A stretch of DNA of 57,670 bases from Thermoproteota archaeon (GTDB lineage Archaea > Asgardarchaeota > Njordarchaeia > Njordarchaeales > Panguiarchaeaceae): NCBI GenBank assembly GCA_024720975.1, contig JANJXX010000007.1, forward strand, positions 448 through 58,117, given 5' to 3'. The notes beneath the pieces were generated by a model. The model saw only the letters and a list, made by a program, of their open reading frames with translations, searched no databases and was not told the origin of the DNA. Every line of letters begins with the position of its first letter. Positions within the stretch are counted from its first letter, which is position 1. A program made the translations under genes and the position numbers. Shown in pieces: positions 20,724 to 26,772 of the stretch.

Positions 20724-20809
20724 GGGCCGGTTGCCTAGAGGTTATGGCGTCCCGCTTACGAGGTTCCTGAGAAACGGGAAGGTCGGCGGTTCGAGTCCGC
20801 CCCGGCCCA
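20724..20809 (+). tRNA. tRNA-Val(TAC) with 13-nt intron at 37/38 (20761-20773)
   Basis: GGGCCGG/CCGGCCC acceptor. TCCCG-CTTACG[intron]A-CGGGA. Splice helix CTTA/TGAG. Confidence 0.93.
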
Positions 20810-25431: not shown

Positions 25432-25527
25432 GCCGGGGTTGCCGAGCGGTACGGCGTCGGCCTGCTAACCAAAAGGCTGATAGCCGATGGCGCTAGCGCC
25501 TCGCGGGTTCAAATCCCGCCCCCGGCA
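25432..25527 (+). tRNA. tRNA-Ser(GCT) with 14-nt intron at 37/38 (25468-25481)
   Basis: GCCGGGG/CCCCGGC acceptor, TCGGC-CTGCTA[intron]A-GCCGA, long variable arm GGCG-CTAG-CGCC. Confidence 0.93.
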
Positions 25528-25535
25528 TAATGATA

Positions 25536-25584
25536 ATGATGATGGTTCAACCGGCTGAGAAATGATGATAGCATGTCTTGCTGA
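25536..25584 (+). ncRNA. Box C/D guide sRNA
   Basis: ATGATGA-TGGTTCAACCGG-CTGA-GAA-ATGATGA-TAGCATGTCTTG-CTGA, with perfect boxes and two 12-nt guides. Confidence 0.93.
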
Positions 25585-25620
25585 AGTTTAAGTAAGCAAA
25601 ACTTGCATAAAATAAAGATA

Positions 25621-25706
25621 GGGCCGGTAGCTCAGCCCGGTAGTCCTCATCCGAAAGCGTCCGGCTCTTAACCGGATGGTCGCGGGTTCAAATCCCGCCC
25701 GGCCCA
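25621..25706 (+). tRNA. tRNA-Lys(CTT) with non-canonical 12-nt D-arm intron (about 25644-25655)
   Basis: Anticodon arm TCCGG-CTCTTAA-CCGGA. Removing TCCTCATCCGAA restores the D-arm GCTCAGCCCGGTAGAGC. Confidence 0.9.
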
Positions 25707-25716
25707 TCAATCAAAA

Positions 25717-25787
25717 GCGCCGGTAGTCTAGTGGTAGGATGCCGGCCTCCCAAGCCGGTGACGCGGGTTCGAACCCCGCCCGGCGCA
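25717..25787 (+). tRNA. tRNA-Gly(CCC)
   Basis: GCGCCGG/CCGGCGC acceptor, CCGGC-CTCCCAA-GCCGG. Confidence 0.97.
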
Positions 25788-25807
25788 CTCAGTCAAATTT
25801 CATTGTG

Positions 25808-25815
25808 TTTATATA
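25808..25815 (+). promoter_or_regulatory. Probable TATA box for the permuted 5S precursor
   Basis: TTTATATA about 50 nt before the processing stem. Confidence 0.6.
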
Positions 25816-25865
25816 CTCTGATAATTTAACAAGAGTTAGCTGTATAGCAGGCCAACGGCGCTAGA

Positions 25866-26031
25866 AAACTCGCATCGGGACCGAAAGCTAAGCCGCGCCA
25901 CGCCGACCTGAGTAGTGTGGGGGAGACCCCACGCGAAAGGGCGGTGCTGTCCGTTCCTAGAGGAGCGGACGGCCATAGGGCGCGGGAAACGCCCGATCCC
26001 ATTCCGAACTCGGAAATCTCGATGCGAGTTT
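25866..26031 (+). repeat. 15-bp inverted repeat (processing stem) with bulge-helix splice motif flanking the 5S gene
   Basis: AAACTCGCATCGGGA (25866-25880) pairs with TCTCGATGCGAGTTT (26017-26031): 14 Watson-Crick pairs and 1 G-U. Then a 3-nt AAA bulge and the 4-bp helix CCGA/TCGG. Confidence 0.9.
25887..26015 (+). rRNA. rrf: 5S rRNA, circularly permuted (3' portion 25887-25957, linker TAGA, 5' portion 25962-26015)
   Basis: 5' hallmarks GGCCATAG, GAAAC.CCCGATCCCATTCCGAACTCGGAA lie downstream of 3' hallmarks GCTAAGCC, AGTA, GGGAGACCC, GCGAAA, GTGCTG. Helix I and II pairings are intact. Confidence 0.93.
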
Positions 26032-26088
26032 GACTCCTTTAGAATTCTTTTTGAATTGTTACTGGTTGATCTATGTGACGGTAAAGAT

Positions 26089-26772
26089 ATGACTACCCCT
26101 ACTGAGGTCTATGTGTTAAAACTTAAACCTCTTCTTGATCGAGGAGCTATTAGTATTTTACTAAACAAGGGTGACTCTGAAGTCCTCTTTATAGGAAATG
26201 AAAGTTATAAGCACATTCTCCAAACAATGTTATCGTTCACCTTACAAACAAAAAGTAGGATATCCAAAGAATATATAAGCGAGCTTACACGGCGTGGTAT
26301 CCGATTAGATTTTGGTGAGGTTGATTTCTATCTGCTAAACTTCTCAATGATGAATCTTAAAGTTTACTTGGCAACATATGGAGACGTTTTAATATCTTGT
26401 GTCTTTGCTAATAACTTTCCGTCAGTCAATGAATTTATTGATATTGTGCGTGATTTAACTACTACTAAGGATATCGGCAAACACGGAATCAACAAAGAGG
26501 AAATAAAGAATCTAAAGGCTCTAATTTTGAGCGCTAGAAGAAGCGCCAGTTCAGGTATTAAAGAAGAGCTTTTGCGTAATTTAAACGACATTCGCGAGTT
26601 TCTTGAAAGGTTGCAGGATCAGGCTTTGGAACCATATTTAGCATCCATAAAAAGGGTATTGCTAATTCTAGAACAGAAAACCGAGATTACAGACGAATTA
26701 AAGTTAAAGTTAAGAAGAATATTATTATTGCTACTAAAAAGTATATCCAAAAGGTTTAAGGAAGAGATTTAA
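26089..26772 (+). CDS. Hypothetical protein (possibly roadblock/longin-like N-terminus with helical C-terminus)
   Basis: True start probably ATG 26089, since the longer ORF call runs through the 5S gene. Confidence 0.6.
   Translation: MTTPTEVYVLKLKPLLDRGAISILLNKGDSEVLFIGNESYKHILQTMLSFTLQTKSRISKEYISELTRRGIRLDFGEVDFYLLNFSMMNLKVYLATYGDVLISCVFANNFPSVNEFIDIVRDLTTTKDIGKHGINKEEIKNLKALILSARRSASSGIKEELLRNLNDIREFLERLQDQALEPYLASIKRVLLILEQKTEITDELKLKLRRILLLLLKSISKRFKEEI

What the first reader, a model, noticed from the sequence alone, without database searches (positions are those of the whole stretch)
25866..26031. Circularly permuted archaeal 5S rRNA gene wired for splicing-endonuclease maturation
Seen: the 5S 3' half (GCTAAGCCGCGCC...GTGCTGTCCGTTCC, 25887-25957) precedes the 5' half (GGAGCGGACGGCCATAG...CCGAACTCGGAA, 25962-26015). 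Leader and trailer form a 15-bp stem, then an AAA bulge, a 4-bp CCGA/TCGG helix and an AAG bulge/loop, i.e. a BHB/BHL motif. Established: archaeal EndA cuts after the second nucleotide of each bulge. Applying that rule gives cuts at 25886|25887 and 26015|26016. Ligation yields ...CCGAACTCGGAA+GCTAAGCC..., the canonical 5S loop B sequence with no gain or loss. Permuted tRNAs (Thermofilum) and permuted SRP RNA (Thermoproteus) mature this way. I know of no described BHB-processed permuted archaeal 5S gene. Such a gene would be missed or split by standard rRNA finders.
Basis: partly seen in the sequence, partly recalled or inferred. Interest (0 to 1): 0.96.

Follow-up and report, generated by a model that had tools for sequence, protein, structure and literature searches.

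The report
Back-to-front 5S rRNA gene, ring-joined
This hot-spring Asgard archaeon (Njordarchaeales) encodes its only 5S ribosomal RNA with the back half first, and environmental RNA reads show the transcript is cut out and its ends joined at the predicted base, most likely into a 129-nt ring; no ring form was found reported for any organism's 5S rRNA in the papers searched.

Summary
Window 25887-26015 is a circularly permuted 5S rRNA gene: 3' half, 4-nt loop TAGA, then 5' half. It sits inside a 15-bp leader/trailer stem with a bulge-helix-loop splicing motif.

- **Annotation:** Rfam sees only two sub-threshold half hits. No other 5S was found in the 81%-complete genome.
- **Rejoining:** Joining the halves in silico gives one near-full-length match to a profile of canonical Asgard 5S.
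- **Distribution:** The same layout occurs in 83 of 151 sampled genomes of the phylum, across 20 families. Named members include Njord-, Odin-, Baldr-, Jord/Freyr- and Heimdall-group Asgard archaea. Outer stems are fully compensatory. Two cut registers both restore the universal ...GGAAG(Y)TAAG... junction.
- **Enzymes:** The genome carries two EndA paralogs and one RtcB.
- **RNA evidence:** In a stranded metatranscriptome of the source study, 12 reads cover only 25885-26015. All 12 cross the TAGA loop, and three carry the back-joint 26015->25887.

So the RNA is excised and joined while the loop is kept, most likely as a ring. Whether the ring is the form inside ribosomes is inferred, at about 0.6.

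This scan has noted the same phenomenon before on other Asgard DNA. I found no published report.

The parts
25808..25815 (+). TTTATATA, candidate archaeal TATA box about 50 nt upstream of the leader stem (inferred promoter of an independent 5S transcription unit)
   Evidence: Read directly. Similar A/T boxes lie upstream of the relatives' loci. No start-site data: no RNA read covers the leader.
25866..25880 (+). Leader strand of the 15-bp outer processing stem
   Evidence: Pairs with 26017-26031. Relatives have 10-16 bp stems of unrelated sequence at the same place.
25881..25884 (+). Leader strand (CCGA) of the 4-bp central helix. It has the same sequence as the 5' strand of 5S helix III
   Evidence: Pairs with TCGG 26010-26013.
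25885..25887 (+). Unpaired AAG, the leader-side cut site (25886|25887). It is loop-like because no inner helix follows
   Evidence: RNA coverage begins here (bin 25876-25887 has depth 1.5, the next bin 9.4).
25887..25957 (+). 5S rRNA 3' half: the last base (G) of the loop B AAG triplet, the 3' strand of helix II, helices IV/V with loop E, and the 3' strand of helix I
   Evidence: Rfam half hit. HMM positions 46-117. Consensus fold with compensatory pairs.
25958..25961 (+). TAGA loop joining the natural 3' and 5' ends and capping helix I
   Evidence: All 12 RNA reads cross it.
25962..26015 (+). 5S rRNA 5' half: the 5' strand of helix I, loop A, the 5' strand of helix II, helix III with loop C, and the first two bases (AA) of the loop B AAG triplet
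   Evidence: Rfam half hit. HMM positions 5-51.
26010..26013 (+). Trailer-side strand (TCGG) of the central helix. It is also the 3' strand of helix III of the mature 5S
26014..26016 (+). 3-nt bulge AAA, the trailer-side cut site (26015|26016)
   Evidence: RNA coverage ends in bin 26008-26019, with zero depth from 26020 onward. The back-joint runs from here to 25887.
26017..26031 (+). Trailer strand of the outer processing stem
   Evidence: The natural variant T26019C in an independent metagenome turns G.U into G-C.
26045..26052 (+). TTCTTTTT, candidate oligo-T transcription terminator (inferred)
   Evidence: Read. No experimental support.

Best explanation
The stretch is the only 5S rRNA gene found in this Njordarchaeales (Asgard) genome, written in circularly permuted order.

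1. It is probably transcribed from its own A/T-box promoter as a precursor of about 200 nt.
2. Leader and trailer pair into a 15-bp stem. This stem presents a 4-bp helix (leader CCGA with TCGG of helix III) flanked by two unpaired triplets, a relaxed bulge-helix-bulge (bulge-helix-loop) motif.
3. The two-paralog splicing endonuclease EndA cuts after the second base of each triplet, at 25886|25887 and 26015|26016.
4. RtcB joins the new ends.
5. This restores the universal loop B sequence ...CUCGGAA-GCUAAGCC... and frees TCGG to form helix III with its proper partner.
6. The product is a 129-nt covalently closed 5S RNA in which helix I is capped by the TAGA loop.

Shown here: the permuted order, its conservation with covariation, the exact junction in RNA, retention of the loop in the same reads, absence of leader and trailer from the RNA, and presence of the enzyme genes.

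Inferred: which enzymes act (about 0.8), and that the ring itself, not a re-opened form, is the 5S in the ribosome (about 0.6).
For: - **It is a 5S gene and the only one found.** There are two swapped half hits to RF00001, and one full-length hit of a canonical-5S HMM on the rejoined sequence. The canonical three-arm fold appears with 36 of 45 pairs showing compensatory change. No other match exists in the genome.
- **Conservation.** A covariance model of the genomic order finds strong full-length matches in 83 of 151 genomes from 20 families of the phylum. RF00001 passes its cut-off only in six other families. I found no genome with a convincing copy of each kind; the one overlap, G110, is a marginal 38.4-bit hit. 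Single-contig genomes G014, G024, G034, G037, G048 and G079 have only the permuted gene.
- **Motif and cut rule.** In 40 of 48 loci an automatic search finds outer stem, 4-bp helix and two triplets. Two registers exist...GGAA|G... and ...GGA|AG..., and both rebuild the same junction under the 'cut after the second base' rule.
- **RNA (run X22, all reads in one strand orientation).** Twelve reads cover only about 25885-26015. Depth in the bins holding the TAGA loop is 12 of 12. The back-joint 26013->25885 (+2 ambiguity) occurs in 3 reads with 3 starts, with up to 45 nt on the shorter side. No pile-up of read ends was reported at the loop or at the cut sites. A read that holds both the joint and the loop can only come from a joined molecule that kept the loop.
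- **Enzymes.** EndA paralogs of 214 and 189 aa each carry N and C domains, and there is one RtcB.
- **Helix I caps.** Caps in relatives are mostly stable tetraloops: 19 of 36 are YNCG and 13 are UUCG. This fits a retained structural cap.
- **Energetics.** The motif-constrained fold is within 3.5 kcal/mol of the MFE at 37 C and 1.4 kcal/mol at 70 C.
Against: - The RNA evidence is thin: 12 reads (about 6 pairs) from one run, of which about 5% was read. Runs X20 and X21 gave 1 and 0 reads.
- Standard RNA-seq loses 125-nt linear RNAs and favours long cDNAs copied round a circle. An abundant re-opened linear 5S could therefore have been missed.
- The motif lacks the inner helix, so cleavage at the leader site needs a broad-specificity endonuclease. 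That is assumed from the two-paralog architecture and was not tested.
- The window's own cap, TAGA, is not a known stable tetraloop.
- The unconstrained MFE fold does not show the motif.
- No ribosome-level data exist.
Confidence: 0.8

Rival explanations
1. The ring is only an intermediate. After cutting and joining, an unknown nuclease opens the ring in the TAGA loop. The ribosome then receives an ordinary linear 5S of about 125 nt with free helix I ends, as permuted tRNAs are finished from circular intermediates.
For: Permuted tRNA genes mature through a circular intermediate that is re-opened (my knowledge; mentioned in PMC4267664). Circular pre-16S and pre-23S are classically re-linearised (PMC12918454). 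Short linear RNAs are under-sampled by standard RNA-seq, so cannot exclude them. The window's loop TAGA is not a stable tetraloop class.
Against: All 12 RNA reads cross the loop, and no pile-up of ends was reported there. Caps in relatives are 3-5 nt and mostly UUCG/UACG-type tetraloops on a perfect helix, which look like structural caps and not processing sites. No enzyme is known that would recognise them. tRNA ends, in contrast, are recognised by RNase P and tRNase Z. Circular SRP RNA (PMC4731332) and circular 23S rRNA in ribosomes (PMC12918454) show that rings can be end products.
Confidence: 0.15
2. The precursor is trimmed at the two sites but not joined. The ribosome would then use a linear, permuted 5S whose ends lie in loop B and whose helix I is closed by the loop, like the permuted mitochondrial 5S of brown algae.
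For: Brown-algal mitochondrial 5S is permuted in the final product (PMC4267664). Most reads are colinear with the genome over their aligned part.
Against: Junction reads exist. Two different cut registers in different lineages both rebuild exactly ...GGAAG..., which is expected only if the ends are joined. No pile-up of read starts at 25887 or ends at 26015 was reported.
Confidence: 0.04
3. Assembly artefact or decaying pseudogene, with the real 5S lying in the unassembled 19% of the genome.
For: The genome is only 81% complete.
Against: An independent study's contig has the same order. The stretch is held in runs of 8 studies. The same layout occurs in six single-contig genomes that have no canonical 5S. 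Covariation is strong, and the locus is expressed and processed.
Confidence: 0.01

Closest known systems
Permuted SRP RNA gene of Thermoproteus tenax, matured to a circular SRP RNA (Plagens et al. 2015, eLife, PMC4731332)
   Same: A universal structured RNA is encoded in permuted order. The ends lie next to a functional loop. [quoted passage not shown] RNA-seq shows the ligated ends, and the ring is the working form.
   Different: The RNA here is a ribosomal RNA. The trait spans 20 families of a phylum and not a few species of one genus. Here only the junction is shown, not binding or function of the ring.
Permuted tRNA genes (Cyanidioschyzon merolae nucleus; Thermofilum pendens), from my knowledge and as mentioned in PMC4267664
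   Same: The 3' half precedes the 5' half, a short linker joins the natural ends, and a BHB-type motif in the flanks gives a circular intermediate after cutting and joining.
   Different: tRNA rings are re-opened by RNase P and tRNase Z. For this 5S no re-opening signal or read end at the linker is seen, and the linker is usually a stable tetraloop.
Permuted mitochondrial 5S rRNA of brown algae (Valach et al. 2014, PMC4267664)
   Same: A 5S rRNA whose helix I is replaced or closed by a hairpin, so that gene order differs from the canonical one. It is missed by standard models.
   Different: In the algae the final RNA itself is permuted and linear, with ends at the junction of two domains, and no splicing motif or ligation is involved. 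Here ligation restores a continuous canonical sequence.
Circular pre-16S/pre-23S rRNAs and circular or permuted mature 23S rRNA in archaea (PMC12918454; PMC7758197, listed)
   Same: A BHB motif in a leader/trailer processing stem, cutting attributed to EndA, ligation into a ring, and in some lineages a ring kept in the ribosome.
   Different: Those genes are colinear, and circularisation joins the natural ends. Here the gene is permuted, and ligation creates an internal bond that the function needs. The 2026 paper explicitly excludes 5S from circularisation.

Membership tests
5S rRNA (Rfam RF00001) | Score at or above the curated gathering cut-off (38 bits) on the gene as encoded | tested here: not met
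   Two half hits of 25.9 and 24.9 bits, and none at gathering. The failure comes from the order of the halves, not from the sequence.
5S rRNA (Rfam RF00001) | Full-length colinear similarity to canonical 5S once the halves are put in natural order | tested here: met
5S rRNA (Rfam RF00001) | Three-arm secondary structure (helices I-V) supported by covariation | tested here: met
   The rejoined and circular folds give helices I, II, III and IV/V. RNAalifold on 19 loci gives 45 pairs, 36 with compensatory changes.
5S rRNA (Rfam RF00001) | It is the genome's 5S (no other copy) | tested here: met
   No other match in the 81%-complete genome. Six single-contig relatives have only the permuted gene.
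Permuted archaeal RNA genes matured by the tRNA-splicing machinery (permuted tRNA, Thermoproteus SRP RNA) | Halves in swapped order, with the natural ends joined by a short linker | tested here: met
Permuted archaeal RNA genes matured by the tRNA-splicing machinery (permuted tRNA, Thermoproteus SRP RNA) | Flanks form helix / 3-nt bulge / 4-bp helix / 3-nt bulge / helix (strict hBHBh') | tested here: inconclusive
   The outer helix (15 bp), the 4-bp helix and both triplets are present. The inner helix is absent here and in 33 of 40 loci. This makes it the relaxed bulge-helix-loop form, which to my knowledge is cut by the multi-subunit (crenarchaeal-type) EndA.
Permuted archaeal RNA genes matured by the tRNA-splicing machinery (permuted tRNA, Thermoproteus SRP RNA) | Cutting after the second base of each bulge, plus ligation, restores the canonical sequence | tested here: met
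   The window gives ...CTCGGAA|GCTAAGCC.... Forty loci in two registers all give ...G(G/A)AAG(Y/A)(Y)AA....
Permuted archaeal RNA genes matured by the tRNA-splicing machinery (permuted tRNA, Thermoproteus SRP RNA) | The ligated junction exists in cellular RNA | tested here: met
   Back-joint 26013->25885 with 2-letter ambiguity (equal to 26015->25887), in 3 reads with 3 starts, in stranded metatranscriptome X22. The numbers are small.
Permuted archaeal RNA genes matured by the tRNA-splicing machinery (permuted tRNA, Thermoproteus SRP RNA) | Splicing endonuclease and RNA ligase are encoded | tested here: met
   Two EndA paralogs with PF02778 and PF01974 domains, and RtcB at 562 bits.
Permuted archaeal RNA genes matured by the tRNA-splicing machinery (permuted tRNA, Thermoproteus SRP RNA) | Cleavage of the precursor by the cognate EndA at the predicted bonds | not testable with these tools
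   Needs recombinant enzyme and an in vitro transcript.
Mature circular RNAs (e.g. circular SRP RNA, circular 23S rRNA) | Molecules that contain both the ligation junction and the linker, with no free ends at the linker | tested here: met
   All 12 reads, including the 3 junction reads, cover the bins that hold 25958-25961. No pile-up of ends was reported.
Mature circular RNAs (e.g. circular SRP RNA, circular 23S rRNA) | Exonuclease (RNase R) resistance, and presence of the ring in purified ribosomes | not testable with these tools
   Needs biomass or a culture.

The most novel reading that the evidence does not exclude
A covalently closed ring, with helix I capped by a tetraloop and loop B sealed by RtcB, is the 5S rRNA that sits in the ribosome. 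This would hold for this organism and for most Asgard lineages (20 of 26 sampled families). Making a working ribosome in these close relatives of eukaryotes would then depend on the tRNA-splicing machinery. The linear 5S of the remaining Asgard families would be either the retained ancestral state or a reversion.
Probability: 0.55. Interest if true: 0.95.

Novelty: new variant of a known kind. Interest (0 to 1): 0.9.

Why it matters
5S rRNA is universal and is usually the easiest RNA gene to find. Its processing in archaea is considered simple and, unlike that of 16S and 23S, free of circularisation (PMC12918454).

- **A new dependency.** Here the gene cannot give a working RNA without cutting and joining. 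Ribosome biogenesis would then rest on EndA and RtcB in most sampled Asgard families.
- **Annotation.** It explains why standard annotation reports no 5S in these genomes, including closed ones. This also affects 'high-quality MAG' criteria that require a 5S gene.
- **A new kind of rRNA.** If the ring is the ribosomal form, it would be the first circular 5S rRNA that I could find reported.
- **A lineage marker.** Permuted versus canonical splits the phylum cleanly by family.
- **Testable biology.** It is a natural experiment on how freely the ends of a ribosomal RNA can be moved.

The covariance model built here (R1) finds these genes directly.

Tried and rejected
- **RNA-run index:** no RNA holder was listed for the stretch. 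The three raw-read RNA runs came in only as 'same study'. X21 gave no read and X20 one partial read, so neither is a test.
- **Unconstrained folding:** the MFE fold of the precursor does not show the splicing motif. The motif is seen only when constrained, at a cost of 3.5 kcal/mol at 37 C.
- **Pattern scan of 185,579 species genomes:** there were 68 matches. All matches outside Asgard archaea that I read through (archaeal MAGs labelled Methanobacteriota, Euryarchaeota, Methanomicrobia, Bathyarchaeota, Thermoplasmatota, Nitrososphaerales, Woesearchaeota and Desulfurococcales, plus bacteria) are ordinary colinear 5S genes or non-5S chance matches, with a chance upstream motif. No permuted 5S was found outside the phylum. 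The pattern was tuned to Asgard sequences, so this is weak evidence of absence. Several true hits carry wrong or vague NCBI labels ('Nitrososphaerota', 'Thermoproteota', 'archaeon'), but they are the same contigs as genomes of this phylum.
- **G110:** the apparent canonical hit (38.4 bits) overlaps a permuted copy at a contig start. I read it as a spurious marginal alignment and not as a second gene type.
- **Automatic motif finder:** it failed or picked a spurious site in 8 of 48 loci. Reading by eye, G048 and G104 have the normal motif with shorter stems. G021, G024, G016, G062, G094 and one unnamed MAG have interrupted or more complex leaders that I did not resolve.
- **Rfam on the rejoined sequence:** The HMM test stands in for it.
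- **Literature:** searches for an earlier report found none. Subscription journals are not covered.

Full report
**1. What is in the sequence**

- Outer stem: 25866-25880 pairs with 26017-26031 (15 bp).
- Central helix: CCGA 25881-25884 pairs with TCGG 26010-26013.
- Unpaired triplets: AAG 25885-25887 and AAA 26014-26016.
- Between them lie a 5S 3' half (25887-25957), a 4-nt loop TAGA (25958-25961) and a 5S 5' half (25962-26015).

Rfam finds no 5S at its gathering score in the window or in the whole 1.36-Mb, 81%-complete genome. With relaxed thresholds it gives two adjacent half hits at this locus only: 25844-25955 (25.9 bits) and 25965-26070 (24.9 bits), against a cut-off of 38.

I could not run Rfam's model on an edited sequence. 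Instead I built a profile HMM from 11 canonical 5S genes of the same phylum.
- The rejoined 125 nt give one hit of 47.0 bits over profile positions 5-117.
- The genomic order gives two hits of 23.3 and 12.6 bits in swapped order.

The rejoined and circular sequences fold into the usual three-arm 5S shape. The locus is intergenic. It lies 78 nt downstream of a tRNA-Gly gene. The only long ORF that overlaps it (GTG start at 25915) is probably over-extended.

**2. It is not an artefact**

The stretch is held in metagenome runs from 8 studies of hot springs. A contig from an independent study (X5) is colinear over 25780-26110. It has a single change, T26019C, which converts a G.U pair of the outer stem to G-C.

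**3. Relatives**

Every relative that showed 'two half hits' has the same order of halves. An alignment of 19 loci gives a consensus fold of 45 pairs, and 36 of them show compensatory changes.

I built a covariance model of the genomic order (R1) and searched 151 sampled genomes of the phylum.
- R1 finds strong full-length matches (46-167 bits) in 83 genomes from 20 families.
- RF00001 passes its cut-off only in six other families, 48 genomes in all.
- One marginal hit (G110, 38.4 bits) overlaps a permuted copy.
- No genome has a convincing copy of each kind.
- Six single-contig genomes have only the permuted gene.

A pattern scan of named genomes, filtered with R1, names the carriers:
- Njordarchaeota / Njordarchaeum (the window's own order, with its genus including isolate GB_136)
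- Odinarchaeia
- Baldrarchaeum
- Jordarchaeum and a closed 'Freyarchaeota' chromosome
- Asgardarchaeum abyssi
- Heimdallarchaeota
- 'Promethearchaeati' LC30

So the phylum is the Asgard archaea. Notes of earlier readers on ESCRT-, UFC1- and Rag-like genes in this genome pointed the same way. All matches of the pattern outside Asgard that I read through are ordinary colinear 5S genes or non-5S chance matches.

**4. The processing motif**

An automatic search finds the same motif in 40 of 48 loci: an outer stem, a 4-bp helix and two 3-nt unpaired stretches.

The 37 distinct outer stems average 11.3 contiguous pairs. Each position shows four to six pair types. Pairing the leader of one locus with the trailer of another gives 1.27 pairs.

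Two registers exist.
- In the window's order and some other families the triplets are AAG (leader) and AAA (trailer).
- In Odin-, Baldr-, Jord- and several other groups they are AAA and GAA or GAT, with the 4-bp helix shifted by one base.

The established rule for the archaeal endonuclease is a cut after the second base of each bulge (my knowledge). Under it, both registers rebuild the same ...GGAAG(Y)(Y)AAG... of loop B. This outcome is expected only if the two ends are joined.

The inner helix of a strict BHB is missing here and in 33 of 40 loci, so this is the relaxed bulge-helix-loop form.

The leader strand of the 4-bp helix copies the 5' strand of helix III. The precursor therefore holds the TCGG strand in the motif, and excision releases it to form helix III.

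The motif-constrained fold costs only 3.5 kcal/mol over the MFE at 37 C and 1.4 kcal/mol at 70 C.

The genome has two EndA paralogs (214 and 189 aa, each with N and C domains) and one RtcB. To my knowledge the two-paralog architecture is the one with broad substrate range. This fits the non-canonical tRNA introns seen next door.

**5. RNA evidence**

Three metatranscriptome runs of the source study were laid on 25780-26110. Only about 3-5% of each run was read.
- X21 gave nothing and X20 gave one partial read.
- X22 gave 12 reads. Ten are at least 99% identical, and all lie in one strand orientation, as expected for RNA of the + strand in a stranded library.
- Coverage is confined to about 25885-26015. 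It is zero in the leader, the trailer and the flanks.
- Depth is 12 of 12 in the bins that hold the TAGA loop.
- A back-joint is reported from 26013 to 25885 with two letters that fit either side. That equals 26015->25887, the predicted bond.
- The joint occurs in 3 reads with 3 different starts, with up to 45 nt on the shorter side.
- No pile-up of read starts or ends was reported at the loop or at the cut sites.

Since all 12 reads cover the loop, the junction reads contain the junction and the loop together. That is possible only for a joined molecule that kept the loop, either a ring or a ring broken during library preparation.

The evidence is direct but thin. Standard libraries also favour long cDNA made round a circle over 125-nt linear RNA.

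**6. Final form**

Three observations point to the ring as the end product.
- The reads cross the loop.
- The helix I caps in relatives are 3-5 nt, and 19 of 36 are YNCG tetraloops, 13 of them UUCG. About 3% would be expected for random tetramers.
- There are precedents of a circular SRP RNA (PMC4731332) and circular 23S rRNA in ribosomes (PMC12918454).

The rival that the ring is re-opened at the loop, as for permuted tRNAs, stays open at about 0.15. An unligated permuted 5S (about 0.04) and an artefact (about 0.01) are poorly supported.

**7. Novelty**

Full-text searches found no report of a permuted or circular archaeal 5S rRNA.
- The only permuted 5S in the library is the mitochondrial one of brown algae. 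It is permuted in the final linear product and involves no splicing (PMC4267664).
- A 2026 paper states that circularisation applies to 16S and 23S 'but not 5S rRNAs'.

Within this scan the phenomenon has been noted many times on other Asgard DNA: 96 notes in at least 75 genomes. One follow-up reports junction RNA in a Hod/Heimdall-group genome. Those notes are unchecked by me and are not counted as evidence.

- the family-by-family distribution across the phylum
- the two cut registers
- the bulge-helix-loop character of the motif
- the tetraloop statistics
- junction-plus-loop RNA reads for a Njordarchaeales genome

**Verdict**

This is a new variant of a known kind: a permuted RNA gene matured by the tRNA-splicing machinery. 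It now applies to a ribosomal RNA and to most sampled families of a phylum.

Noticed in passing
window 25432-25788: A tight RNA gene cluster lies just upstream of the 5S. It holds a tRNA with an anticodon-loop insert of about 16 nt and a long variable arm (25432-25527), and a candidate C/D box sRNA (25531-25587, sub-threshold Rfam hits of about 27 bits with clear C, D', C' and D boxes). It also holds a tRNA with an insert of about 14-18 nt in the D-arm region (25621-25706), which ARAGORN misses, and tRNA-Gly(CCC) at 25717-25788.
   Followed up: partly
window 20724-20809: ARAGORN calls a 'tRNA-Stop (tta)' of 86 nt, and Rfam scores it as tRNA (54 bits). It is probably an intron-containing tRNA misread and not a suppressor.
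   Followed up: no
L078 (G031), L079 (G021), L080 (G102): In two other Asgard families (f12, f22) the permuted 5S gene carries an extra insert of about 30 nt at the same place in loop C, after CCGAA. Close relatives (L085, L072) lack it. It looks like an intron inside the permuted 5S gene. Ring sizes would be about 150 nt if it is not removed.
   Followed up: partly
L019 (G024, single-contig genome): The leader carries two copies of CGTGAGAG separated by a hairpin-forming insert of about 23 nt. The outer stem adjoins the first copy, while the 5S continues from the second. This could be nested or two-step processing, or a relic of a duplication.
   Followed up: partly
L071 (G062, family f16): The best motif here (CCAG/CTGG with triplets AAA and ATT) predicts a junction ...CTGGAT|AGTTAAG.... 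That is one base longer than the universal GGAAG, and the outer stem is interrupted.
   Followed up: no
L074, L075, L082, L083 (G110, family f25): Four contigs of one MAG end or begin inside identical permuted 5S copies. This suggests a multi-copy 5S that breaks the assembly.
   Followed up: no
window 25915-26772: The ORF with a GTG start overlaps the 5S 5' half. The real start is probably the ATG near 26090, so an annotation that takes the longest ORF would bury the RNA gene.
   Followed up: no
L122, L134, L138, L147: Several public MAGs that carry the permuted 5S and belong to this Asgard phylum in GTDB are labelled 'Nitrososphaerota' or 'Thermoproteota' in their NCBI titles.
   Followed up: partly
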